The position numbers and the translations under genes are program-made. A DNA stretch of 64,000 nucleotides, taken from Balamuthia mandrillaris. Lineage: Eukaryota. Below, in pieces: positions 3,962-53,299 of the stretch. Where the stretch lies: positions 62,001-126,000 of the forward strand of contig JAVKOQ020000079.1 of NCBI GenBank assembly GCA_031835245.2. The letters are read 5' to 3'. Each line of letters begins with the position of its first letter. Within the stretch, counting starts at the first letter, position 1. The notes below the pieces were generated by a model. It saw nothing but the letters and a program-made list of their open reading frames with translations. It did not search any database and was not told the origin of the DNA.

Positions 3962-4032
3962 GGGCGCTGCCCGGAATCGAACCGGGGCCTCTCGCACCCT
4001 AAGCGAGAATTTTACCACTTAACTACAGCGCC
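3962..4032 (-). tRNA. tRNA-Pro(AGG)
   Basis: GGCGCTG/CAGCGCC acceptor stem; anticodon arm CTCGC-TTAGGGT-GCGAG; T arm CCCGG-TTCGATT-CCGGG; 71 nt. Confidence 0.95.
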
Positions 4033-4118
4033 TGAGCAAGAAGAGAGCAAAGGGCGCAGCTGCAGGAAGAGTTCGGCTACCGAAAAACGTCAAAAAAAAA
4101 ACAAATAAAAGAAAAGTT

Positions 4119-4189
4119 GGGCGCTGCCCGGAATCGAACCGGGGCCTCTCGCACCCTAAGCGAGAATTTTACCACTTAACTACAGCGCC
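4119..4189 (-). tRNA. tRNA-Pro(AGG)
   Basis: Identical to 3962-4032; T-run downstream on the minus strand. Confidence 0.95.
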
Positions 4190-4287
4190 TTGGTTGTTGG
4201 AACTAGAAAAATTTTAAAAAAACGAAAAAAGTTTTCTCTTTTCAAAACGGAGGGAAAGGAGAGAGAAAGAAGAAACGTGAGGAAAAG

Positions 4288-4329
<42 letters not shown>

Positions 4330-4332
<3 letters not shown>

Positions 4333-5820
4333 GATGCCATACATTTTACGTGTGTTCTCCCTTGTAACACGAACAACAGTCTCAATAGTCTCTTGTTTGA
4401 CTTCGGCAATCTTGGCTGCCACTAATGGGATCATTCCTGGATGGCCCGTCTTTCCTCTGTGCGGGACAGGAGCCATGCTAAAAGGTTTTTAATAGAATGG
4501 GTTAGACAGAGAAACGACAAGAAATGAAGGAAGAATACGAACAAGGGAGAATCCGTCTCTAACAGCAAGCGATCAAGTGGTAATTGTTTGACAACATCTC
4601 GAGATTGTTGGGCGCTGCCAAAAGTGATGACGCCAGTGAAGCCAAACCACAGGTTTGGAAAGTGAGCCATTAACGCTTCAGCCATGTCCCAACCTGAACC
4701 AAAGCAATGCATATGGATCTTTGTTTCTGGAGGAACGTTCTCTTTCATGATGCGCAAGGTATCCTTGTGTTTTTCTTTTTTTTAGGAATAGGGAAGCAGA
4801 CAAGCAGGAGCAGGGAACAAGAGAACTAGGGAGCAAGAGGACGAGAGGACAGGAGACCCAATGTCAAGCAGAGAACGAGAGAGCAAGCACGAAACGAACC
4901 TCATCAGCGTCTCTGGTATGTATGACCAAGGGCTTGCCCAAAGAAACCGCTCGCTTCAGCTGTTTCTCAAAAACTGTGCGTTGCACCTCCGCTGGGGACA
5001 TGTTCTTGAAGTAGTCCAGTCCCATCTCGCCCCAAGCCACCGTCTTTGGATGGGCCATCAGCTGGCAGATCTCTTCTTCCAGCTCGTCCGTGTAGTCACT
5101 GGCTTGGTGAGGATGAATGCCATATGTAGCCCAAACATTGGGTTTGCTTTCTACCATTTGCTTTGTCACCTTTTTATATTTGGGGAACACAAGTTGGTTT
5201 AGTTTTATTGTTGTGTGTTTTTGGTTGTTTTTTCATTCTCTCTCTTCTCTCTGCTCTCTGCTCTCTCTCTCTACTTTCATTCTCTCTCTCTCCTCGCTTC
5301 ATCGTTCTCCTCTTCGTCGTTCTCTTCTCTTCATTTTTCTCTTCTTCCTCTCTCTTGCAACGAACAGTAAGCAAGTGTAACAACAAACCTTGTACCCAGA
5401 AAGGAAGCAACAAATTTGGAGGCACCCATCAAAGTGGAAGTGGACCGGCAGAGAACAAGTGGGATCGACGGAAGCGTTCACCCGATCTACAGCCTCGTCC
5501 GAGAAATTTTGTTCGTAGAAGCCCTCAAAGCGTTCAATCACTTGCGAGGCCGTCTGAGCGCCTTCTCTCTCCAATATGAGATCCAGGTGGCAGTGGGAGT
5601 CGAAGAAAGGCAGCGCCTCTGTGGCTCGCAGGTCTCGTTGGGGCAGAGGGGATGAGGCGGTGTAAGTGGCGGCCGATTTTTTTCCAGCAGGCGACTTCGC
5701 GGCGGCCTGCTGCTGTTGTTTTTTGCTTTGTTGTTGTTGTTGTTTGACACGGGAGTTGCGCGCTTTGTCTTGGCGAGCATTGGCGTTGCTGCTGCTGCTG
5801 GTGTTACCAGGGTTCTCCAT
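4330..5820 (-). CDS. tatD: TatD family DNase (multi-exon)
   Basis: Motifs DSHCHLD, YGIHPH, GEMGLDY, LVIHTRDA, HMHCF, LLETDSP and C-terminal RENTRKMYGI*. Confidence 0.93.
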
Positions 5821-5961
5821 GATGCCTAGGCTTGGGACTACCACCACACAGAGAGCAGCTGCGGCAGATAACTTTCGCGGAAAAGACGATTGGGATATGT
5901 GTTTTTTATAACCCCATTCTCAAAAAGAAGATATTGGCTAATCACATTTTATCCACACGAA

Positions 5962-6032
5962 GGCGCTGTAGTTAAGTGGTAAAATTCTCGCTTAGGGTGC
6001 GAGAGGCCCCGGTTCGATTCCGGGCAGCGCCC
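5962..6032 (+). tRNA. tRNA-Pro(AGG)
   Basis: Same cloverleaf; followed by an oligo-T Pol III terminator. Confidence 0.95.
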
Positions 6033-6182
6033 AACTTTTTTTTTTGTGCTACTGCAGATATTTTGGGCAGACATATTTATTTGGGCGCTTTTGCTGTCCT
6101 GTTCCCGCGCAGGAATTGTTGGCACCATCGCCGAGCTGCATGTCTAACCCGGCATTGGTTAATCACATTTTATCCACACGAA

Positions 6183-6253
6183 GGCGCTGTAGTTAAGTGG
6201 TAAAATTCCTGCTTTGGGTGCAGGAGGCCCCGGTTCGATTCCGGGCAGCGCCC
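6183..6253 (+). tRNA. tRNA-Pro(TGG)
   Basis: Same body; anticodon arm CCTGC-TTTGGGT-GCAGG; oligo-T terminator. Confidence 0.95.
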
Positions 6254-6719
6254 AACCTTTTTTTTTTGCCATGATTCCAACAAGACAAGGAAGAGTGAAA
6301 GTGTCAAACGGTTCGTTTTTTTTTTCCCTGTTATTTTTTTTCCTCCTTCGCTTGTAATTATTTTCAGCAGAACAACGACTTGAGTTGTGCAGAGAGTGCG
6401 CCAAGCACCAGGCCATTCTTAAGTTAGAGCGCACCCACAATAGCAGGGCTATGCTATGGAGAGCACCCACAAAGAGCTTCCTTGCAAGTTTCCATATCAG
6501 CCTGGCGCGGCAAACATTAGCCAACCCTTCTTACACTGCGCTTCTGCGTCACCGACGGTTCTTCTTGACTCGGGTGGATGGTGGTGAAAACCCACCCCAG
6601 GCTTTTTATTTTTTGTGTAACTTACTCTGAAAAGTAAAAAGAAAGGGCAGCAACAGAGAATAGAGAACTAGGAGTGTGCTTCATCGAAAAGAAATGTTTG
6701 GAAAAGAAGAAAAAAGGTT

Positions 6720-6790
6720 GGGCGCTGCCCGGAATCGAACCGGGGCCTCCTGCACCCAAAGCAGGAATTTTACCACTTAACTACAGCGCC
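6720..6790 (-). tRNA. tRNA-Pro(TGG)
   Basis: Reverse complement of 6183-6253. Confidence 0.95.
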
Positions 6791-7729
6791 TTACGTTGAT
6801 AATCTCATACAAAACTAGTCATCACATAGCCTCAACCTCTTTTCCTTGGCATTCTTTTTATTCCCTGGTACTTCTTTTGTTTAATGCACTTGGATTTGAC
6901 AAAGGAAAGAACTCGTTTTTTGTTTTTGTTAAGTTTAATGGTAGCTTTTCTTTTCACCCAGTTCTCCTTTTGTCATCAACCTGAGGAAACCTTTCATCTT
7001 CCTTTTTTCCCTTCTTAATATTTCCTTTTCTCTTTCTTTTCTATTTTATGCTTTGTTCTTTATGGATCTTTTTTCTAATTTGAATACCTAATGTGAACAA
7101 AACAAAAACTAACTAATTAATTAAAAGAAAAAGAGAAGGAAGCAATGAAATAAAAAAGAAGCCTAGCAATGTGGCAGCAGGTGATTAGTCCACATCACAA
7201 ACATTGACAAAAAGAAAGGGAAGAAGCAATAGAGATAATATGTTGAGAGTAATTCTCAACAGTCTTGAACTTACTTTGTCTTCATTATTATTCCTGTTCT
7301 CATTTTACAATACCTCAAGCAACCACCTTGCCAAAAAGACAAAAAAGAGTAATAACCCAACTCAAATATTTAAAAAGAGTACATCTTCAATAAAGGAATC
7401 CTAGAGAAATAACAAGATTTTAAATGGTATATGGAAAACAAATGGACTTTACAAAAAGTTTGTTGATAGAATCACCAACACTGATCTCAAGACTCCTCAT
7501 GTTGGTTCAGACTCACTCTTTTTCTCCTTCCTTTCCCTTTCTTGGTGACTTTGAAGCAACATTGGAGATTCACTCTTGTTGTCCTTGCTCTATTCCCCTG
7601 AATACACTTCTTGTCTCGTCACAGACTCTTTTATTCCAAAGGTTGGATTCTACCAACAAGTTAGCAGTGATTCTATTGAGGTGTAGCAGCAGCTTTTCAA
7701 TCTAACAGGCTTTTCTATACAACGTTCCA

Positions 7730-7894
7730 CTCCTGTCAACATGACCAAGTCCTTCATCAACAAAAAAGGTGTCAACAGGCGAACAATGTTCTCGGAAACG
7801 ACCGGATGAAGTGCCAACGACACCTCCATCTCGAGAGGATAAGCGTCCTCCACGTTGTTTTCGTCATGCAAGCTTAACAGGGACTCGGTGAAGG
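7730..7894 (-). pseudogene. Truncated inverted copy of the 5' coding part of the F-box gene at 8991
   Basis: Near-identical to 9049-9213 (FTESLLSLHDENNVEDAYPLEMEVSLALHPVV.ENIVRLLTPFL..KDLV.L.G); lacks the start exon context and the rest of the gene. Confidence 0.85.
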
Positions 7895-7946
7895 AAAAAA
7901 ACAAAACACAGTAAACCACAACTTAATGCAAAAATCAAAAAAGGTT

Positions 7947-8017
7947 GGGCGCTGCCCGGAATCGAACCGGGGCCTCCTGCACCCAAAGCAGGAATTTTAC
8001 CACTTAACTACAGCGCC
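7947..8017 (-). tRNA. tRNA-Pro(TGG)
   Basis: Same as 6720-6790. Confidence 0.95.
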
Positions 8018-8724
8018 TTCTTGTGACGAGAACGTCAATGGGGATCTTGGGGAACAATGGTAAGTATGAGACCCAGCCCAAAAACCAATTACCTGACGCT
8101 GGATGTGTCTACTCAGCCATTCGACCAGCCTTTGGTTGCTTGCGGGAGACTTATCCGAGAGCATCTGAAATGTTTGAAGGTTTGCGAGGTGTAGTGTCGT
8201 GTACTCAAAATGGTACCTCACTCTTTGTACATGTCCTTCTTTTGAAGCGCCGCAAGGTGGACACAATAAACAACATGGTCCTGCGCGCTCACAGCTAAAC
8301 ACTGACTACGTAAAAACAAAAAACATCCCAACCACGTCGTCCTGAAACGAAACATGCTAAATACAAAGGTGCTGAGCAAAGCAGCACAGCGAGTTCGTCA
8401 GTGGCGAGCAAAAAAGAAACGAGAAAGGAGGAGAAGGAAAACCAGGAACAGCTGCTATGTGAAAAGAAGAAAACAACGAAGAACAGATGCTAAGCGGAAG
8501 CGCCGTCAACGGCAACATAGGAGACCACCGCCTTCTCCTGCTACGGGGGAGAGAGCTTTTTTTTGTAGACATTGTAGACAACCACAGCAAACTACGATCT
8601 ATCGAATACTCGCCAACAGGACACCGCAATTGCTCTGTGTCAGGAATGAAGAATCCATATGGAGCTTCTTGTGCTCACGCCCACCATGTAACTAGATAGA
8701 GAGGGATGACCATAAACAACCAAA

Positions 8725-8795
8725 GGCGCTGTAGTTAAGTGGTAAAATTCTCGCTTAGGGTGCGAGAGGCCCCGGTTCGATTCCGGGCAGCGCCC
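8725..8795 (+). tRNA. tRNA-Pro(AGG)
   Basis: Same as 5962-6032; oligo-T terminator. Confidence 0.95.
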
Positions 8796-8990
8796 AACCT
8801 TTTTTGATTTTTGCTTTTTTTGTTTTGGGGCATGAATCGTTCTCCAGGAGGGCCGGCGCACTAAGCAAGGGCGTGAAAAGAAAGAAAGTCTCTCTCTCTT
8901 TGTTTTTTTTCAGAAAGCTCTGTTTACTGCTTCGTGGAGAGGAAAGCGACATTGGAAAAAAAAAAAACAAAACAAAAAAAACTGAAAAAA

Positions 8991-10009
8991 ATGTACTGTA
9001 GTAAAGAGAAACGAGAGGAAGCTGCTCTGAGGAATGAAAGCCTGGCGGCCTTCACCGAGTCCCTGTTAAGCTTGCACGACGAAAACAACGTGGAGGACGC
9101 TTATCCTCTCGAGATGGAGGTGTCGTTGGCGCTTCATCCGGTCGTCACCGAGAACATTGTTCGCCTGTTGACACCTTTTTTGTCGGTGAAGGACTTGGTC
9201 ACGTTGGCCGGCGTCAATGCCTCGTTTCGGCGATGGGCTCTCTCTGCTCCAGTTTGGCGACCTCATGTTCTTCCTAGGCTGCGTATGTTTCCGCTCTCTT
9301 TGTCTTTTCTATTACTCTCTTCCTTTCATTTCTATCTTTCTCTCTGTCCTTCATTTTACATTCGTTCGTTTTCTCTCATGCTTCCCCTTTCAGAGCTGTT
9401 TCCAGATTCCATAGCCTTGTTATGGGGCTATGGCAACACAGAGAAGCGACTACGCTACGAACGGAAGGAAAAGAAAGTAACGTGGGTCGACGTCTACAGA
9501 AAGCTGTACCGATGGCCGCGGGTGGGCATGGTCTTTGAAGTGAAAGACACGTACGAGTTTTGGTCAGTTGCACGAGTGCATGCTCGTCTTGGCGAGAACT
9601 TGTTTCTGATTCACTATGAAGGTATACGTCTCTTGTTCCTTCTCTCTGTCTCTCTTTTTTTTTTGTTCTTATCCTCTCATGTTATTGTTCTGTCCTTCTT
9701 GCTTCGTATTTCGGTGTTGGCTGTTCTGTGCCATTCTTTCTTAACTTCTTTATTTTATTTCCACAAAAGGTTGGTCAGAAACGTGGACAGTATGGTACCA
9801 CAAGTACCATGACCGAGCAATTATACGAGCATTGACCAAAGAATGTCCAGGTTTATACGCTTCTTTCTTCTTCTTCGTCTTCTTCTTCTTCTTTTCTCCT
9901 CCTCCTCCCCTCTTCTCTCATCTCCTCTCTTCTTTTTCGTCGTTCACTTTATCTCTCTCCTCTCTTCCTCTCCCTCTTCCTCCTCCTCTTCCTCCTCCTC
10001 CTCCTCCTC

Positions 10010-10047
<38 letters not shown>

Positions 10048-10307
10048 CTTCCCTTTTCCTCTGCTCCTTCTGGTGCTTTCTCCCACTTCTTTCGTTAACA
10101 TTTGAAACGAATGATGAAGGTGTTGGTGGTGCTGGTAGTTACAAGAATGAAGAGGATTGGCATAGTTATCACGCTCGAGTTCTAAACAGACTTGTTACCA
10201 ACGCTGAAAAAGATCCCACCACTGGTTATCTTACCAGTCATTGGATTGCTCCAACGGCAAGAACAGGTTTGTATTTGCAAGTTGAACAGCCTCAGGTCAG
10301 TGACTAA
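8991..10307 (+). CDS. F-box-like protein with a Tudor/Agenet/MBT-like domain (multi-exon)
   Basis: F-box-like ENIVRLLTPFLSVKDLVTLAGVNASFRRWALSAPVWR; Royal-family-like GMVFEVKDTYEFWSVARV...LFLIHYEG|WSETWTVW. Confidence 0.65.
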
Positions 10308-10598
10308 TGATTGTTACAAAAAGGTATTCCACAATCTTCTCCTTATCATGAGCAAGAAACCCAGTTCACTTGTGTCATTCAGGTAAGTCGGAAAACAATA
10401 GCTCACACACAAACATCGCCATTCATATTGTTCTAACCTCTCTATTTCACTCTTTCAACAAATCGTGAAAAAAAAAAGGACGAAGCCAAGTGGCTACACC
10501 AACAGAAAGCGAAACCTTTTCGTGCTTGCCACACGGTCGTCAGTGAAAATTGTTTTGAGTAAATAGAGAAGGAAGCAAAAAACAAAAAAGTAAGTGTT

Positions 10599-10669
10599 GG
10601 GCGCTGCCCGGAATCGAACCGGGGCCTCTCGCACCCTAAGCGAGAATTTTACCACTTAACTACAGCGCC
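10599..10669 (-). tRNA. tRNA-Pro(AGG)
   Basis: Identical to the other AGG copies. Confidence 0.95.
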
Positions 10670-10837: not shown

Positions 10838-13141
10838 TCATCTTTTAGTTTCATACTTTTTCCATATAGTCTGATATGATGCAATTGCTGATTCCATCCA
10901 GGGCTTCTTCGATCCGTTCCAGTGCAACACCTTTGCTGCGTTCAGTCTCTGTTTGCTAGCAGCGGCGTTATTCCATCCTAAATCGATTACATTCCATTCT
11001 TCTCCAAGTTGCACCCACTGTTGATGAAACACCACCCAAATCAATGGCTGGGTGGCGAACATCCACAATGTCTCATATTTACTTCTTAGCTCGATCCACC
11101 ATAAGAACTCCTCCTCCACTCTGCGTTTCCTCCACTTTTTCAAGTCGGCTACAAACACTCCCGTGTTGAACGTTGCTTCCTCCGGGTTGTACCTTCTCTC
11201 TGGGTAAAGATACTGGAACGCCGTTTGCACACTTGAGTCGACTTCTCGCTTTAGCGGTCTATCAAATCGGGGAACTGCAGCCAGGGCAATTCCCTTCGCC
11301 GTCATGGGTGTTTGCCAAAGCTCTCTAAGATCTCCTAGCGCCAAAGTGTCGCTGTCCAACCAGATGATTCTGTCCAAGGAAGGAAATAACAGGTGCAAAA
11401 ACAGACGGGCGTAGTTGCTGTCCTCGTTCAGCTCTTCTCGGTAATGATTGTTCAGCTTGTCTTTGATCTCCCTTCTCAAGTTGAACTTCGTCACATCCAC
11501 TGGAGGGCAGCCTTCGCAAAGAACCTTTTGACCCAAGGCTGAAGCACCATGCTCCTCTCCGTTGTCGGCATCACTGGCGGAGATAATGACGTGCACCATA
11601 ACTGCTTCTGGGTGAGCAGTGTTCCTACCGATGGAACGAAGCAAAGCTAACAGCCCTACCAAGTAGTCCTTGTTCACTGCCACCACCACATGAATGGTGT
11701 CCAACCGCTTCACGTCTGTCGCAGCTACGTCGCAAACCTTCGATTCCCATTGTTGCCCTATCGCATGGCCTTCCACCAATGCTTCCTCCACACCGAAGAA
11801 TTCAAAACAAGCCTTGTGGTCCTTTTGATGTCTCACGAACAAGTCTCTAATTGTCACCGTATCTCCGTAGTTCGAGTTTGCAACAGCCATCTTCTTGGTC
11901 CTTCCTTCTTCAATTATCACATCTTCAATCCTTGCGAATCGAGGTCCGCCATTGTCTTTGCAGTTTCCACATGACTTGTAGAGAATGCCGTTCTGCCCTT
12001 TTGCTCTGAACCCTTTCGTCACAATAACTGTGCTGTTTTTGGCGTTGTGTTGGAAGATCTTGTCGGGGGTGCCTCCCCAACCTCCATTTCCGTTGAACGC
12101 CCACCCTCCTTCGATGGTCATGATTCCTCCATCTGCACTGTGAGTGGCTGCATCCTCGCAGATGTCTTCCCAAATGATATTGTCAAGATTACAATTGCCA
12201 CTGTTGCAATGGATGCCATCTGCGCCTCCATGTGCTGCAATGCGAAGGTTCTTCAAGGTGGCGTTGTAAAGTGTGATGACTGCTGGTTGGTCTTCTCTGT
12301 CTCCGTCACAGGAGAGGCCAACACGAGCCCCACCGCAATCCACCACCTCGTCTCTAAAGGTCGCTCCAGCAAAGCAGCGAGGATTTGGCTTAAGAAGGGG
12401 CACCACTTCGTTGTTGTGACAATGCACAGGACGTAGAAGAGGGAGAGAGTAGTGGTCGTGGTCGAGGTCGTGGTTGTAGATGACAAGACTGTCAATGAAC
12501 AAGAGCGAGAGCTCGCCGTGGCTTTTGTCGTTTGAGGCTTGAAGCACGATGCTGTTGACCCCAGGTGGTAAAATGGCGGTAACAGAGACGGACTGCCACG
12601 AGGCATTGGTGGCTTCCATTCCGAAGGAAAGGACTGCTTCCCAGTTGACCAAAAGGGAGAAAGTGACGGGTTGAGAGAGCAAAGAGAAGTACCAAAATTC
12701 CAAGGTGTGGACTTGTGCATTATCAGCAGAAGAATGCACTTTCCACTCGAAGCGAGCTTGATGGGGGAGATGAGAACGAACATAGCCACTGGCGGTGTAA
12801 CCCGGAAGGAGGTTGTCGACTGTCACGAAGGTGTCAGAATGGCAGCTTCCGGGATAGTTCTCTTGAAGCTCCAAAGCCGAAGGAGGATAAGAACGATGTG
12901 TGTGGGAGGGGGAAGTAGGAGAAGACGAGGAAGAAGATGACGACGACGACGACAACGAAGAAGATGGTGATGAAGGAGGAGGAGGAGGAGCAGAGGCTTT
13001 CAGGGAAGGGGTAGAAGAGGAAGCGGAGGGGGAGGCGAACTCATTCGAAGACGGAGAACGGTCGTTCCAAACGTAGACCTCGAAGGATAAGAGAAGAAAG
13101 ACCAAGAGGAGGTAAACGACACGCAAGCGGGCAAGCACCAT
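10838..13141 (-). CDS. Type II membrane protein: TM anchor, Ser/Pro linker, CBM35/CBM6-like, pectate lyase family 3, glycosyltransferase family 8 (intronless)
   Basis: Single open frame; likely start MVLARLRVVYLLLVFLLL. PL3 motifs ADGIHC, WEDICEDA, DKIFQHN, LYKSCGNC, NSNYGD. GT8 motifs NYARLFL, IIWLDSD, FNTGVFVADLKKW, WNVIDLG, LHWNGSKKPW. Confidence 0.9.
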   Translation of the reverse strand: MVLARLRVVYLLLVFLLLSFEVYVWNDRSPSSNEFASPSASSSTPSLKASAPPPPPSSPSSSLSSSSSSSSSSSPTSPSHTHRSYPPSALELQENYPGSCHSDTFVTVDNLLPGYTASGYVRSHLPHQARFEWKVHSSADNAQVHTLEFWYFSLLSQPVTFSLLVNWEAVLSFGMEATNASWQSVSVTAILPPGVNSIVLQASNDKSHGELSLLFIDSLVIYNHDLDHDHYSLPLLRPVHCHNNEVVPLLKPNPRCFAGATFRDEVVDCGGARVGLSCDGDREDQPAVITLYNATLKNLRIAAHGGADGIHCNSGNCNLDNIIWEDICEDAATHSADGGIMTIEGGWAFNGNGGWGGTPDKIFQHNAKNSTVIVTKGFRAKGQNGILYKSCGNCKDNGGPRFARIEDVIIEEGRTKKMAVANSNYGDTVTIRDLFVRHQKDHKACFEFFGVEEALVEGHAIGQQWESKVCDVAATDVKRLDTIHVVVAVNKDYLVGLLALLRSIGRNTAHPEAVMVHVIISASDADNGEEHGASALGQKVLCEGCPPVDVTKFNLRREIKDKLNNHYREELNEDSNYARLFLHLLFPSLDRIIWLDSDTLALGDLRELWQTPMTAKGIALAAVPRFDRPLKREVDSSVQTAFQYLYPERRYNPEEATFNTGVFVADLKKWRKRRVEEEFLWWIELRSKYETLWMFATQPLIWVVFHQQWVQLGEEWNVIDLGWNNAAASKQRLNAAKVLHWNGSKKPWMESAIASYQTIWKKYETKR

Positions 13142-13681
13142 TCCTCTGTTCAGATGGTGAGAAGAGTTTTTGTTTTTGTTGTTTTGTTTTTTTTTAAAAA
13201 AAAATAAACAACAAGTAAACGAACCGAGAACGAAGAGGTAGTTATATCTGTGCGTGCCAAAAAAAGGGATGTTGGATCCCAACCATGAAGCGTTACTGGC
13301 GGGAGAAGCCAACGACAAAAGGAAAAGGACTCTGTTTGCAGCTGTAAACAGTCTGCATTTGGGCGAGCATTCCCGCTGGCTTCCTTTGATTTTCTTTCGC
13401 CCGTCCATTAATACGATGGGGGGGGGGGGGCCCCCCCCCCCCGCTCCGTCAACGGGCAGAGAAACAGCAGTCTTTGGGCAGAAGGAAGGGGCTGAGAAGC
13501 GGTGGAGAGCGCAAGGGTAGCCGGCTCTTGGGTGGAGCGCTCGTTCAACGGCTGGGGAGGACAACGGCAGGCCACGGCTCCTCTGTCAGGTCGCACCGTA
13601 TCTGGACATATTTTAACGGTGTGCACCTCCCTCCCGTTTCTCCATTAAAAAGCCCTTTCGTTGAAAAATAGAAAAGAAGGA

Positions 13682-32061: not shown

Positions 32062-32697
32062 TTAAAGCGCTTTCTTCAATGCATCGCTTGCACCTCCCCC
32101 TACAAGCCCTCCCAAGCTGGTGAGCTCTCCAGGGATGATGATGGTCTTGTTCTGGTCCCCAGCCATCTCAGCCAACGTCTGGAACCACCGCAGCTGCAGG
32201 GAGATGGGATTCTCGGCCATGATCTCAGCCGCCTCGTAGAGAGTGTCGGCCGCCTGCCTCTCGGCCTTGGCGGTGATGATCTTGGCGGAGCCCTCCCGGG
32301 TGGCCTCTGCCACGGCCGCCATGACCCGTTGCATGCTTGGGGGGATCTCCAGGTCCTTTATCTCCACGTCCGAGACCTCGATGCCCCACTCGTCCGTCTC
32401 CTCGTCGATGCAGCTGCGAAGGGACTCGGCGATCTTGGCGCGGTTGTTGAAGAGCTCATCGAGGGTGTTCTCCCCGATGGCGGTGCGGAGGCTGCTCTGG
32501 GCAAAGTTCATGGTGGCGTAGGAGTAGTTGTTCACGTTGAAGAGGGCCTTGCGGATGTCGGCTATGCGGTAGTAGACCACGGCGTTCACATCCACTGTCA
32601 CCTGATGATTGGCAAGAGAAAGCAGAGAGAGAGAGAGAGAGAGAGAGAATAAAGGATAAGCAAATAAGAACAGAGAAGAAAGGAATATAGAGGAGAG

Positions 32698-32746
<49 letters not shown>

Positions 32747-32834
32747 ACAAACAATACAAACAAGACCCTCTCTCTCTCTCTCTCTCCCGTAAACAGGGTT
32801 TACAGTGGTGGACTATGCCACATTTGGAGGAGAC

Positions 32835-32882
<48 letters not shown>

Positions 32883-33392
32883 CAGACAACGAGGGTACAT
32901 AGAAGCAAAAATAAACGGAACGAGAACGAGGACGAGAAAACGAAGAAGAACAACGAAGAAGAAGGGAGAGAATGGGGGGAAAGAGCAGGAGAAAAGCAAA
33001 AAATAAATGAAGGCACGAACGTTGTCTTTGGTCATCATGACCTGCCGGCTCAAGTCCATTGTCCTAACCTGGACGCTCTCCACGAGGTACTCCTCCACGC
33101 CCACGTTGTAATGATACGTGCCCGGCCCCACGATGCGACTGAACTTGCCGTAGCGGAGGACCACCGCGCGAGAGCCCTCCGGCACCACCTTGAGGGGACC
33201 CGCGCCCAGGAGGCCGCAGGGGCAGCAGATGACGGTGCAGCAGATGCCTTGGACCAGCTGCATGCTCTTGAAGATGTTGGAGCAGAGGTCGTTGTCCGAG
33301 TCCTCCTGGTAGTCCTCGTACTTTGTGGCCGCCGCTCCTCCGCCCGCTTTCTTCGTCATGGATTTGTGAGGCACTTTGACGCCAGAGCTCAT
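32062..33392 (-). CDS. Stomatin/SPFH (band 7) protein, paralog A
   Basis: VPEGSRAVVLRYGK, MMTKDNV, VNAVVYYRI, AQSSLRTAIG, WGIEVSDVEIKDL, AEATREG.AKII.A, LQLRWFQTL. Confidence 0.95.
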
Positions 33393-33885
33393 TTTCTTTG
33401 ATCTGTGTTTTATATTTTTTATTTTTATTTCTTTGGGGGGGGGGGAGGTCTTGCAAGAAAACAACAAAGTTCAAGTGAAGGTTCTTTTAAAAGAAGAAGC
33501 CAAAGGAAGATCAGGAAAGGGTGCCGTGCGGGAGAAAGCGAAAGGAACAAGAAGAAGCATAGCACTCTTCTTTAGCGAAAGGTTTGACCGTTACATCTCC
33601 AAAGGAATAGTCGATATCGGGTCAAATATTTCGCAAATATTCCATGAAAAAGCTGATGTGGCGCCATCGCATTGGTCCCTGGAAAACTCTATTGCCAATA
33701 AAATTCCTATAATTATTGTAATATAGGAAAAAAAAAAAGACCTTGTCTTGCTTCTTCTTTCTTCTTTTTAACTCTTTTTTTTTTTTGCCAAAGCTTGCGT
33801 CTGCCTCTTCTTTCGTCGTCACACAAAAGCAGAGCGAACAACCAAACTTAAACAAAAAAAAAAAACAAACAAACAAACAGTAATA

Positions 33886-35461
33886 ATGAGCAGCGATAAA
33901 GAACGTTTATCCTCTTCTTCTTCCTCCTCCTCCTCTGCTTCTGAGACGGAAGAAGACGCCGCTCTCACCGCCAGCGGCCAAAAAGCAGCTCCAGCCTCTT
34001 TGTCTGCTTCTGCCACCAAAGCAAAACCAAAAGCGCGGAAAGCCGACGACGACATTGATGTTGACGACGACGACGACGACTCCCTCTCTCTGCAAGAAGA
34101 TGAAGAGGGCTCGGCAAAGAAGGGTCCCTCCGCGCCGAGGAGCATGCGACGCAGCGCGGCGGGCAAGAAGGAGAGGAAAGGAGCCGTCACCGAGTACAAC
34201 GATTACGAGGAGGACCTGGACAACGACGGCTGCTCCAACATCTTCAAGAGCATGCTGGCCATCCGGGGCTACCTCAACACCGTGCTGTGCTGCCCTTGCG
34301 GAGTGCTCGGCTGCGGGCCGGTCATTCGGGTGAGGGAGGGACAGAGGGCCGCCGTCATTCGGTATGGCAAGCTCCACCGCATTGTTGGGCCTGGTTCGTC
34401 TCGTTGCTGCTGCTTGTTCTTGTTTCTTCTTTCCTCTTCCTGTGTTCTTGTTCTTTTCCTCTTCAGCATATGCTTCTATCTTTGCTTCTTTGCTTCTGTC
34501 TTCCCTCCTTAATGCTTCCTGTTCTTCTTGTCTTTCTTCTCTCTGTAATGCTGCGTGAGCGTATTCTATTTCTAACCTGACGGCACCACAAAAAAAGGAA
34601 CGTACCATTACAACACTGGCACAGAACAGTTCCGGATCGAAAACATCCAAACCCGAACGCTCGATGTGCCCAAACAAAACATGCTCACCAGAGATAACGT
34701 GCGTTCTTCCTCTTCCTTCTTTCTTCCCCTTTCCTTTCGCTTTTTTTCTCTTCTTTCTTTCTTCGTCCTTCCTTCCTCCGTTCCTCCTTCTTTTCTCTCT
34801 CTTGCTAACATCCAACGAACAGGTGCCCGTCGAAATCAACGCAGTGATCTACTATCGCATCGAGGACATCCGCAAGGCCCTCTTCAACGTCTCCGACTTT
34901 TGCCAGGCCACCACCAACTTTGCGCAGTCCACTCTCCGCACGGTGGTGGGCGAGGTCACCCTCGACGAGCTCTTCTCCGATCGCCACAGCGTTAACACGC
35001 ACCTCACCGAGCTCATCGATGCGGCGACGGATGGGTGGGGTATCTTCGTCTCGGCGGTGGAGATCAAGGACCTGGTCATCCCGGTGGACATGCAGAGAAC
35101 CATGGCGGCCGTGGCGGAGGCCACGCGGGAGGGCTCCGCCAAGATCATCACCGCCAAGGCGGAGAAGGAGGCGGCGGCCACGCTGTCGGAGGCGGCGGAG
35201 GTGATGGCGAGAAACCCGATTGCCTTGCAGTTGAGGTACTACCAGACGTTGACGGAGATCTCGGCGGAGCACAACAGCACCATCGTGGTGCCGAGCGAGT
35301 TTACGCCGAACAGGAGGGACAAGTATGCGTCGTTCCTGGAAGGAAATGGAGGAGGTGCTTCTTCATCATCGCAGCAGAGAAAGAAGAAGAAAGGAGGAGC
35401 ACCGGATATGTCGTTCTTGTTGCCGAGCTCCACGATGAAGAGCAAAGGCAAAGATGAGTAA
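33886..35461 (+). CDS. Stomatin/SPFH (band 7) protein, paralog B
   Basis: Same motifs (MLTRDNV, INAVIYYRI, AQSTLRTVVG, LQLRYYQTL) with acidic N-terminal and basic C-terminal extensions. Confidence 0.95.
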
Positions 35462-50036: not shown

Positions 50037-51123
50037 TTAATGCGGAGAAGAAGACGATTCATGTCTGGCATACGAGTTTTTGGGAGGATTCCACCGACGA
50101 CCCATCATAATGTAATCGATGCCAACTGAAAACAAAGACGTGCCTACCACACTCAACGCTAATCCTGCTACGCCCGCTGGATAGAGAAAAGTGAGTAAAA
50201 GGTAGAAAGAAAGCACGAGAACGGAGAAACGGAGAAAGAAAGAAAACAACAACACAGGAAGAAGAATGGAAGAGAGGAGAAGACAAAAGCTTGAAGGAAG
50301 ACAGGAAAGGAAATTACATCGAGCGCCAAAGACAGTGCCAGCGCATGCTCCGGCAAGCAATGAGTTTTTGAGATCGGTTTGTCCTCTCCACTGTTTGATG
50401 TTGCACACAATAACAGCGGTTTTAAAAAGAGACAAAGCCAAAAGAAAAAAGAGACGAATAACAGCAAAGACAGAGAAACCAGAAACCAGAAACGAGAGAG
50501 AGGAAAAAAGAAAAGAGAAAGAGAAAGAAAAAAAGAGAGAGCAACGACAAAAGAGAAAGTAAAGGAGAAAGAACAACAACGAACCTTTTCAATGATACAT
50601 TCAAAAGTAACAAACACTCCACCAAAGACAGCAAAGCCTTTGGCCATCGAAGTGGCCGAACGGTACATGCTGCGGGCCACGTCCTTGACCTGCCCCTTAA
50701 AGTCCGGCTTCAAGGGTTGTCCCTGGTCCGTTATGCCAGAGAAGAACAGCCCAAACATGACTCCCATCGCACCACCTTTTTTTTTTAAATAAAAATAAAA
50801 TAAAAATTTCAAGAAAAAAGTAGCGATCGAAAAGAGAGAGAAAGAGAGAACGGAAAAGAAATAAAACCTGCAACAACAGCACCGGTGCCGCGCACCGCGC
50901 AGTGGTCAGGGAAGTCGGGGTGCATCAGGATGCGCTTGACGGGAGGGCCGTAGGTCATGTCCAAGCGGTGAAGGAAGCCCATGATCGAGTTATCGTTGTT
51001 GTTTTCACCATCATCGAGGTGGTTGTTGTTGTGCAGCGCAGGGGGGCTGGCTCCCTCCTCCGAAGGAATGCTGAGGTCGGGTATGGCTGGCCCCGCTGCG
51101 CCCTGCCGGTTCGTGTCGTTCAT
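50037..51123 (-). CDS. TIM22: Tim17/Tim22/Tim23 family protein, most like Tim22 (multi-exon)
   Basis: C......VVAG|GAMGVMFGLF, AKGFAVFGGVFVTFECIIEK|WRGQTD.KNS..AGACAG. Confidence 0.8.
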
Positions 51124-51223
51124 TTTACTTTCTTTTGTTTTCTTTTCACCAATCAGGACGACATGATAAATTCGCTCCTGCTCAAATTCTGCAGCAATTT
51201 TGCAACTTTTTTACTTTTTTTTT

Positions 51224-51512
51224 GTCGAGCTGGGGTGGTGGCAGGATGCAACAAAGCCGCAAGGCGGTACCCCACTCGATTCCTCTCGGGTCCAGCCCAG
51301 CTAAGATATTTGTCGACGTGGTTGTGGTTTCGTTCGCTTGTTGGGCTGGCGTCGCCAGGCGAGTAGGAGGAAGTAAACTCCAGGTTACTGCCAACCACTA
51401 CACTCGGTTTGCGGGCGAACACTCTGCGAAGAGGGCAGCAAACTAGAGGTTGGACAATGTCTGGGCCTGGTGGAAGTACAACCAAGCATCCGGGACGTCA
51501 CGATTTCAAATC
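51224..51512 (+). ncRNA. Candidate structured non-coding RNA of unknown class
   Basis: Intergenic, GC-richer than its flanks, with several local and long-range helices, two GNRA-capped hairpins and a T15 run immediately downstream. Confidence 0.45.
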
Positions 51513-51993
51513 TTTTTTTTTTTTTTTGTTTGCTTGGAATGGACACCCCAAAGTTGGAGAAGGAACTTGTCTCACTGACTCCAACCTGGGAGGTCAAAGC
51601 AAAGCCATTTTTGCGGCTCTTCGTTTATTTTAACTATTTCATTTTTTAAATTGCTCGTCACAGACGGGAGAGCGAAACAGGTTTGTTTCATCTTTTTCTT
51701 CAGCTTTTTCACAATGAGTTTTATGCCAACTTCATTATCACTCGCAAGTAATACTATTTGGGGTGAATGCCCCGACGTGGTAATCAAAACCCTAACGGTC
51801 CAACTACTCCAGCAGTGGATTGGTTTTCGGCAGATAAAGATCTTTATCGGTTGCCCTAGGGCAAACGCACTTTTAGCATCATTCATTTCATCAAGGCTAC
51901 AAATGAACTGGTTTACTTGGTCGAATTCTAACCGGTGGGTGAACTCCTTCACATCCACCGTTACCACGAGAGGAACAAAGAGAGCAAAGCAGC

Positions 51994-53299
51994 ATGAAGC
52001 TATTCTTGTTCTTTTGGCTGTTCCACAGTGCGCCGCTTTTGATGGGAGGCGGTATGACAGAGGCGGGACAGGGCCTCACCTTGGTGCCCTTCTCCCCCGT
52101 GCCTCCCCCTGGTTTCTGGTTCACCGCCAACTTCAAACCCTCATCCAACGAAGGATGGCTCATTGGCCAAGAGGTTGCTACCCCCCACGTTGTTGACTTG
52201 AGTACGTTCCTGCTTTGTTCGATGCCATTCCCCAAAACTCACCTGCAACACAAAAGATACCATGGCGGTAAGAACAGTTAACGCGACTGGAGAATTTCCA
52301 ACTTTTACTATCAATATGGGAGCTGGACAGTCCATCTTAGGGGACCTCATCTACAACGTGAATGGTCTAAACTTCCCAAACGCCAACACAAACAATCTCC
52401 ACGTTTTTGGTATTGTCTGTTTTGCTCTTTTAAACACTCATTCACCTCAACTAACACAATATGAAAAGACACCAACACGTATGAATGGACCCAACTGCCG
52501 GACGCACCAACCGACCTCACAAGAAGCGGTACAACGCTCATTACTGCCAATGGCAAGCTTTATGTGTTTGGGGGCTACGGCCCCAACCACCGAAGCGACC
52601 TGTATGAATACGACCCATGTTGGTTTCTTCCTTAGCTTTCATGTTATCCTTTTGAGTTTCTCTAAAAATAACACTCAAAGATATAAAATAGCAACCCAGG
52701 CATGGACTTTCCGAGGAGACTCTGCCGGAGTGGGAACTGCGTTTGCCTCTGGCACTAAGCTTGGTGACTTTCTCTTCTTCTACGGGGGAGAAACTACCAA
52801 TTCGGAAAAAATAAACCATGTCCTTCGCTTTAGCCTCAACACGAGTCAATGGGATACCGTCCAGCCCACCGGCCCATCGTTGTTTGAGGTCATCTTTCAC
52901 AAGATGTTTGCGGATGAGGAGAGAAAGTGCGTTTGGACGGTTTCTGGTTTCACTGAGGGCGTTCCACAGGATGTTGCCCACAGACTGTGTTTCGAGACGG
53001 AGGATGATTTAAGCCCTCGCGTGGAGGAGTTTCATTACGACTCAGATACGTTGACTGCACTCTTTGTTCATTCCGAGAGACGACGGGTCTATGTCGCAAG
53101 TGCGTTCTATCCACATCTTTCATTCAAACACCCTCCCTAACGTTGCAGTGGAATAAAATAGCTGCCGAGGAATTTGGAGAACTTCGGTTGGTTTGCAACT
53201 ATCCTTCTGGATGTCCTGTTATCACAACCCCGCTTACCTGTCCTCCTTCCCAACCCTATCGGTACACTTCTATTCTATTCTTGCTCCCCTTTTCTCTCT

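What the first reader, a model, noticed from the sequence alone, without database searches (positions are those of the whole stretch)
51224..51512. Unassigned ~290-nt structured RNA candidate with possible pseudoknots
Seen pairings: 51225-51236 with 51269-51279 (TCGAG-c-TGGGGT / ACCCCA-CTCGA); GCC-GCAA-GGC at 51256-51265; long-range 51287-51295 with 51461-51469 and 51304-51317 with 51449-51462; 51318-51324 with 51392-51398; 51333-51340 with 51356-51363; GGAG/CTCC at 51366-51381; GGTTTGC..CTCT-GCGA-AGAG..GCAAACT at 51406-51444. Possible crossing pairs: CCCAGC 51296-51301 with GTTGGG 51340-51345, and GGATGC 51244-51249 with GCATCC 51486-51491. G-U pairs and GNRA loops work on the + strand, and a T15 run follows. 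The size suits SRP or RNase P/MRP RNA, but I could not match their signature motifs by eye. Inference: a divergent known ncRNA or a new Pol III transcript or ribozyme.
Basis: partly seen in the sequence, partly recalled or inferred. Interest (0 to 1): 0.72.

Follow-up and report, generated by a model that had tools for sequence, protein, structure and literature searches.

The report
Orphan structured RNA family in Balamuthia
Beside a mitochondrial-import gene of the amoeba Balamuthia lies a non-coding stretch whose first ~90 bases are kept in a divergent allele and at a second place in the genome and match no catalogued RNA family, so it is likely a gene for a small folded RNA, though its expression and job are untested.

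Summary
The window is Balamuthia mandrillaris DNA; the stretch lies between a Tim22 gene and a kelch-repeat gene. No Rfam family matches; signature motifs of SRP, RNase P/MRP, telomerase RNA and snoRNAs are absent. The new evidence is conservation: a divergent allele keeps 51234-51286 (45 of 53 letters) next to unalignable spacer, and a second locus keeps 51238-51322 (70 of 85). One pair runs C-G, U.G, U-A across copies. No relative was found outside Balamuthia. Expression is untested. Best reading: a small family of likely Pol III-type structured RNA genes with a conserved 5' core and variable extensions (0.5). A lariat-capping-ribozyme reading rests on a 10-nt match at the cap site but fails most tests (0.05).

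The parts
51224..51512 (+). Candidate RNA gene, GC 56%, between T9 (51215-51223) and T15
   Evidence: one copy in the window
51234..51322 (+). Conserved 5' core
   Evidence: syntenic allele contig (X10 record 1) aligns 51234-51286 with 8 differences, its next 30 letters match 51287-51314 by eye at 24 of 30; contig of a second locus (X10 record 2, 2815 nt) aligns 51238-51322 with 15 differences, no gaps
51256..51265 (+). 3-bp hairpin with GCAA (GNRA) loop
   Evidence: inside both aligned pieces; differences there, if any, were not displayed
51266..51293 (+). Predicted helix D (51266-67/51292-93, 51269-72/51288-91) with a variable 15-nt loop
   Evidence: pair 51272/51288 is C-G here, U.G in the X2 second-locus contig, U-A in the X10 one; C51292T keeps G.U; changes at 51275, 51278, 51286, 51287 fall in the loop. 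Chosen after seeing the changes; not in the minimum-energy fold
51294..51314 (+). Conserved stretch with four alternative partners in this copy (51228-34, 51340-49, 51448-55, 51461-69); ends in AAGAUAUYUGUC
   Evidence: helix list; loose end of the allele
51323..51379 (+). Variable insert: two hairpins, holds one pseudoknot partner
   Evidence: replaced by about 7 nt at the second locus (loose end, read by eye); 10-nt deletion at 51348 in sample S2
51380..51406 (+). CCAGGUUACU motif and strand predicted to close the core by pairing with 51226-51244
   Evidence: pair probabilities 0.93-0.97 for most pairs; the same 10-mer and a strand complementary to 51236-51252 follow the core at the second locus, then TTT (by eye)
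51406..51444 (+). Hairpin with GCGA (GNRA) loop
   Evidence: z -1.6; not aligned in allele or second locus
51446..51512 (+). 3' extension: second GGAAGUA-loop hairpin (51468-84), GCAUCC (51486-91), 10-nt identity to the Didymium lariat-capping site (51484-93)
   Evidence: not aligned in allele or second locus
51513..51527 (+). T15 run, possible Pol III terminator
   Evidence: all 10 tRNA genes of the window are also followed by T runs
50168..51123 (-). Neighbour: Tim22 (Tim17 family) gene, divergent, start codon at 51123, 100 nt from the element
   Evidence: RNA reads
51994..53140 (+). Neighbour: 5' part of a multi-copy kelch-repeat gene (start codon inferred)

Best explanation
The stretch is likely one gene of a small Balamuthia family (at least two loci) of structured non-coding RNAs, likely read on the + strand from about 51224 to the T run by RNA polymerase III, and predicted to work as a protein-binding scaffold in the manner of vault RNAs. 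The shared unit is a core of about 120-160 nt: a closing stem, a GNRA hairpin, a helix with a variable loop, a conserved probably unpaired stretch and the CCAGGUUACU motif. This copy adds a ~57-nt insert and a ~110-nt 3' extension, which give it two competing folds. Shown: sequence, neighbours, conservation pattern, lack of family match. Inferred: strand, folding, transcription, polymerase, ends, and function.
For: Conserved island: between the two haplotypes Tim22 exon 1 differs at 11 of about 246 letters, the 107-nt spacer is replaced by 125 unalignable letters, and 51234-51286 keeps 45 of 53. An unlinked contig keeps 70 of 85 letters, in two samples from two studies (X2, X10). In sample S2 the element has 1 substitution and one 10-nt gap over 51224-51502, against 9 substitutions in the 406 nt downstream (one-sided p about 0.05, by hand). 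None of the displayed changes breaks the local core model; 51272/51288 goes C-G, U.G, U-A. At the second locus the letters after the core can pair with the core's 5' strand and are followed by TTT (by eye). Not coding: the only ATG frame (66 codons) is frameshifted and loses its stop in S2. Vault RNAs conserve little beyond internal promoter boxes and come as paralogues (PMC7058938, passages).
Against: No transcript seen; no valid test (see Tried and rejected). Whole-length folding is at chance level. The core model was fitted after seeing the changes, rests on one covarying pair, and is not the predicted minimum (5-9 kcal/mol above it). Only 7 of the 15 second-locus differences and 2 of the 8 allele differences were displayed. 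C>T is the commonest change over the whole stretch laid, so G.U-keeping changes are weak evidence of strand. The A- and B-box-like motifs (51239, 51274, 51504) are at chance level: 548 such pairs in the window at 2 mismatches each, 82 at one mismatch in B. The element is preceded by T9, whereas 8 of 10 tRNA genes here are preceded by AA. Nothing ties it to vaults.
Confidence: 0.5

Rival explanations
1. A remnant of a short non-autonomous mobile element (SINE- or MITE-like) present at a few loci; the pairings come from internal duplications and have no present function.
For: Dispersed second copy. Imperfect T-rich direct repeats flank it (51200-25 and 51504-29, 81%), and there are internal repeats (51221-33 with 51309-21; 51273-81 with 51401-09) that explain the alternative helices. 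Up to 16% of a Balamuthia assembly was annotated as repeats or elements (bioRxiv 10.1101/2025.02.25.640156, section 7).
Against: Only two other contigs at 80% or more in the source sample's run, none for the 3' two-thirds (depths). Kept at the same place in a haplotype whose adjacent spacer is unalignable. The second copy has no A/T tail next to the shared part and no terminal inverted repeat is present.
Confidence: 0.2
2. A DNA element: the conserved island is part of the Tim22 (or two-way) promoter and was duplicated to another gene; no separate RNA is made.
For: The core lies 110-200 nt upstream of the Tim22 start; Tim22 reads reach 51150. Other non-coding islands are conserved nearby (51669-51712, 51858 onward). 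Folding z is not significant.
Against: 82% identity over 85 nt plus a displaced 10-nt motif is more than shared factor sites need; the covarying pair and the closing stem at the second locus point to RNA structure.
Confidence: 0.15
3. A very divergent housekeeping RNA (SRP, RNase P/MRP, telomerase RNA). The reader's fold resembles SRP RNA in outline: a 5' three-way domain, a long interrupted helix and two distal arms.
For: Size; 51286-51470 on its own folds into that outline.
Against: No Rfam match at E up to 10. No SRP helix-8 motif, no P/MRP CR-I or CR-V, no TTAGGG template on either strand (motifs recalled; Balamuthia telomeres are TTAGGG). The distal arms are the least conserved part.
Confidence: 0.08
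4. A group I-derived, lariat-capping-type ribozyme outside rDNA that would cleave after G51486 and cap the downstream transcript.
For: 51484-51493 is identical to 10 nt around the Didymium cap site, and UCGGGU (51286-91) matches its P10 5' strand (sequence in PMC4436661); P10-, P15-, P9- and bulged-A P7-like helices can be drawn in the right order; T51310C in the allele turns a G.U of the P3-like helix into G-C.
Against: No hit to Rfam GIR1 or group I models. No room for P4-P6. P3 only 3 bp, no G.U at the base of P15, 5 extra nt between P7 and P9. The would-be catalytic 3' part does not align in the allele or the second locus; the X10 second-locus changes break 3 P10 pairs and A51294C breaks a P15 pair if partners are unchanged. 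The match was noticed among many families compared by eye.
Confidence: 0.05

Closest known systems
Vault RNAs (Pol III type-2 genes; PMC7058938)
   Same: Small paralogous genes, little sequence conservation, variable middle, predicted closing stem, T run at the end; vault proteins occur in Dictyostelium (reference titles).
   Different: A and B boxes here are no better than chance; the conserved core (about 90 nt) is longer than promoter boxes; 289 nt is well above the 84-141 nt given for vtRNAs (abstract of PMC8287541); no Rfam match; no link to vault protein tested.
Eukaryotic SRP RNA (7SL)
   Same: About 290 nt; one possible fold has the same outline.
   Different: No helix-8 SRP54 motif, no Rfam match, distal domain not conserved.
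Lariat-capping ribozyme GIR1 (Rfam RF01807; Didymium, Naegleria, Allovahlkampfia)
   Same: 10-nt identity at the cap site, a P10-like helix, drawable P15/P7/P9.
   Different: No P4-P6, not in an rDNA twin-ribozyme intron, no homing endonuclease gene, no Rfam match, 3' part not conserved.
tRNA-derived SINEs
   Same: Dispersed copies, weak A/B-box-like 5' part, T-rich flanks.
   Different: Very low copy number at 80% identity; no shared tail.

Membership tests
SRP RNA | Match to an Rfam SRP model | tested here: not met
SRP RNA | Helix 8 with SRP54-binding symmetric loop | tested here: not met
   recalled motif, both strands
SRP RNA | S domain is the most conserved part | tested here: not met
   51323-51512 does not align in allele or second locus at 80%
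RNase P / MRP RNA | CR-I and CR-V forming P4 | tested here: not met
   (recalled motifs); no Rfam hit
RNase P / MRP RNA | P1 joining 5' and 3' ends | tested here: not met
   no such helix among the 45 best of 5 bp or more or in the folds
Telomerase RNA | Template for the TTAGGG telomere | tested here: not met
   none of the 6 hexamer permutations on either strand; repeat
Lariat-capping ribozyme (GIR1) | G-CAU cap site followed by P10 | tested here: met
   51484-93 against the sequence; P10-like 51284-89/51490-95; this copy only
Lariat-capping ribozyme (GIR1) | P3/P15 pseudoknot and P7 | tested here: inconclusive
   drawable, but P3 has 3 bp and one seen change breaks P15; hallmark from PMC4167309
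Lariat-capping ribozyme (GIR1) | P4-P6 domain between P3 and P7 | tested here: not met
   2 nt (51301-02) at that place
Lariat-capping ribozyme (GIR1) | Inside an rDNA twin-ribozyme intron, upstream of a homing endonuclease gene | tested here: not met
   no rRNA in the window; neighbours are Tim22 and a kelch gene
Lariat-capping ribozyme (GIR1) | Self-cleavage with 2',5' branching | not testable with these tools
   needs an in vitro assay
Small self-cleaving ribozymes (HDV-like, hammerhead, hairpin) | Core motifs and topology | tested here: not met
   no hammerhead or hairpin core; one weak HDV-like P1/P3 arrangement (3 variants; 3 G.U in a 6-bp P1) inside the variable insert; no Rfam hit
C/D and H/ACA snoRNA, Sm snRNA | Boxes C/D, H/ACA or Sm site | tested here: not met
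   no C, D or Sm motif; an H-like hexamer at 51440-45 loses its last A in S2 and the 3' box reads AAA
Vault RNA | Internal A and B boxes | tested here: inconclusive
   imperfect matches at chance frequency
Vault RNA | 5' and 3' ends pair; T-run terminator | tested here: inconclusive
   fits the second locus by eye; in this copy the closing stem ends at 51406, 106 nt before the T run
Vault RNA | Binds vault particles (MVP/TEP1) | not testable with these tools
   needs pull-down
SINE / MITE | Many dispersed copies with target-site duplications or terminal inverted repeats | tested here: inconclusive
   two loci seen at 80% or more; low-complexity direct repeats; no whole genome held

The most novel reading that the evidence does not exclude
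A minimal group I-derived, lariat-capping-type ribozyme lacking P4-P6 that has left rDNA, sits on a normal chromosome and caps or switches a host transcript through two alternative folds.
Probability: 0.05. Interest if true: 0.85.

Novelty: new variant of a known kind. Interest (0 to 1): 0.42.

Why it matters
My literature searches turned up no described small RNA of Balamuthia beyond automated Rfam annotation. A conserved two-locus RNA family absent from Rfam would be a candidate for an RNA that amoebozoans may have but that my searches did not find described (a vault RNA, for one), and a small, cheap target for expression and probing tests. If the ribozyme reading held, it would be the first lariat-capping ribozyme outside rDNA introns as far as the papers read report.

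Tried and rejected
Expression: no RNA holder listed. Three raw RNA runs, 3-5% of each read, gave 7, 7 and 0 reads on 50601-52100, all on Tim22 and mostly of the divergent haplotype, none on the element; the cut-off of 85% sits at the allele's identity (45 of 53), so this is no test. Contigs of X13 and X16 (X16 only guessed to be RNA) show no piece on the element; not evidence. Whole genome: none held. Relatives elsewhere: viral contigs 0, 0 and 7 matches, metagenome contigs 0 and 10, prokaryote genomes 8; none of the 25 loci extends beyond its pattern by more than about 10 letters, so all were rejected as chance; phage blastn no match. Other copies in the window: none. Tim22 exon search gave only two Balamuthia proteins, so no syntenic outgroup. 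Coding: 66-codon frame rejected; Tim22 variant 2 does not extend into the element. tRNA: none called there. Permuted group I core (S-like 51303-14 before R-like 51452-57, P-like 51409-19; motifs recalled): rejected, P4 has only 3 pairs, J8/7 would be 8-9 nt, strict motifs absent. Short look-alikes of 5S rRNA, HDV, IRES and telomerase motifs noticed by eye from recall were dropped as chance. The bacterial promoter scan is not relevant. The alignment was not used. The LC crystal-structure paper was not held. The supplements of the Balamuthia preprint, which may list its 100 annotated ncRNAs, could not be seen and bear on whether ordinary SRP, P and MRP genes exist elsewhere.

Full report
Setting. 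The window is eukaryotic DNA with spliceosomal introns and ten tRNA genes. An exon of the gene next to the finding is 98% identical to Balamuthia mandrillaris Tim22, the only two hits among 23 candidates. The finding lies 100 nt upstream of the Tim22 start codon (51123, minus strand) and about 480 nt upstream of a kelch-repeat gene on the plus strand. No whole genome is held.

Observation. Two overlap at 51461-62. The stretch as a whole does not fold better than shuffles (z -0.94; 35 of 200 as good), and the predicted minimum is another fold, in which 51226-44 pairs with 51388-406 and 51292-301 with 51340-49. What is above chance is redundancy of complementarity: 16 helices with six or more straight Watson-Crick pairs against 7.3 +/- 2.9 (three related counts were not significant). 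The stretch 51289-51302 alone has four possible partners, and internal direct repeats explain part of this. The first 58 nt reach z -3.4, a level that 3 of 142 GC-rich windows of that size also reach.

Known families. Rfam gives nothing at gathering scores and, at E up to 10, only one chance hit on the T run. Recalled signature motifs of SRP helix 8, RNase P/MRP CR-I and CR-V, boxes C/D, the Sm site, hammerhead and hairpin cores and strict group I R and S elements are absent on both strands; one GARAR pentamer occurs on the minus strand and one weak HDV-like arrangement in the variable insert. There is no template for TTAGGG, the telomere repeat reported for Balamuthia (passages).

Conservation, the main new evidence. 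Four of 16 listed runs, from two studies, hold the stretch; one may be its source. In sample S2 (X3) one contig covers 51070-51502 with one substitution inside the element (51445) and a 10-nt deletion at 51348; the same contig has 9 substitutions in 51695-52100, and only 23 letters where the window has 192 (51503-51694), a joint the tool itself dropped as lying at a repeat. At 80% likeness, run X10 has a contig that runs from a divergent Tim22 allele (11 differences and a 15-nt gap in 261 nt) through 125 unalignable letters into 51234-51286 (8 differences); its next 30 letters match 51287-51314 at 24 of 30 by eye, with two one-base insertions. A second X10 contig of 2815 nt, with no other match to the stretch laid, aligns to 51238-51322 with 15 differences and no gaps: a second locus. 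Run X2 shows both kinds of contig at depths 7.9 and 8.9 beside 25.2 for the window's form; its allele contig jumps from 51286 to 51669 without an aligned piece between. X13 and X16 show nothing on the element. So the 5' ~90 nt are a conserved non-coding island shared by two haplotypes and two loci, while 51323-51512 is not alignable at this threshold in either. A Balamuthia preprint describes a diploid-like genome with uneven haplotypes (section 7), which fits.

Structure of the core. Only 7 of the 15 second-locus differences and 2 of the 8 allele differences were displayed, plus four read from the loose end. The local model has helix 51266-72/51288-93, whose pair 51272/51288 reads C-G, U.G and U-A in three copies, and whose loop takes four of the changes. 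It was fitted after the fact and is 5-9 kcal/mol above the minimum. After 51322 the second locus has about 7 nt, then the CCAGGUUACU motif found here at 51380-89, then a strand complementary to 51236-52, then TTT (by eye). That suggests a closed core of about 120 nt there, with this copy carrying an insert (51323-79) and a 3' extension. The second locus also has a GCGA hairpin, but 5' of its core.

How it most likely works. I commit, at 0.5, to a small family of structured RNA genes, read on the plus strand by Pol III up to the T run and acting as a protein-binding scaffold, most like vault RNAs in gene style (limited conservation, paralogues, internal boxes; PMC7058938, passages). Shown: the sequence, its neighbours, the conservation pattern, non-coding status (the 66-codon frame is broken in S2) and the lack of a family match. 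Inferred: strand, fold, ends, polymerase and function. The A/B-like boxes are at chance level, and the T9 in front is unlike the A-rich flanks of 8 of 10 tRNA genes here. Expression is untested.

Rivals. A low-copy mobile-element remnant (0.2), a duplicated promoter island (0.15), a very divergent housekeeping RNA (0.08), and a lariat-capping-type ribozyme (0.05). The last rests on 10 identical nucleotides around the cap site of the Didymium ribozyme (sequence in PMC4436661, passages) and on drawable P10, P15, P7 and P9. It lacks P4-P6, lies outside rDNA (PMC4167309, parts 1-2 of 5; PMC3679873, passages), misses the Rfam model, and its would-be catalytic part is the part that is not conserved.

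Relatives and novelty. Seven pattern or blast searches of viral, metagenome, prokaryote and phage collections gave 25 loci, all chance. These collections hold few amoeba genomes, so this does not show that the family is limited to Balamuthia. Literature searches (listings and abstracts only, apart from the papers named above and passages of PMC12133305) found no description of such an RNA. Earlier notes of this scan held no look-alike. Interest 0.42.

Noticed in passing
window 51528-51615: A long interrupted hairpin right after the T run (z -1.3; arms), inside the ~170 nt that appear to be missing from the S2 contig.
   Followed up: partly
window 51366-51381 and 51468-51484: Two 4-bp hairpins share the loop motif GAAGUA(A/C)A (D9); possibly two sites for one protein. 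Neither lies in the conserved core.
   Followed up: no
window 51669-51712 and 51858-52350: Further conserved non-coding island and several paralogous contigs of the kelch-repeat gene: a multi-copy family.
   Followed up: no
window 50866-51126: Two Tim22 haplotypes about 95% identical with a 15-nt indel at 51021, both present in some samples at unequal depth.
   Followed up: partly
window 3962-10669: Cluster of eight tRNA-Pro genes (5 AGG, 3 TGG) on both strands within 7 kb.
   Followed up: no
window 10838-13585 (-): Long stop-free frame of 915 codons that by eye (recalled motifs, not scanned) joins a pectate-lyase-like part to a glycosyltransferase-8-like part.
   Followed up: no
window 32062-35461: Two similar stomatin/SPFH-like genes head to head (by eye, not scanned).
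   Followed up: no
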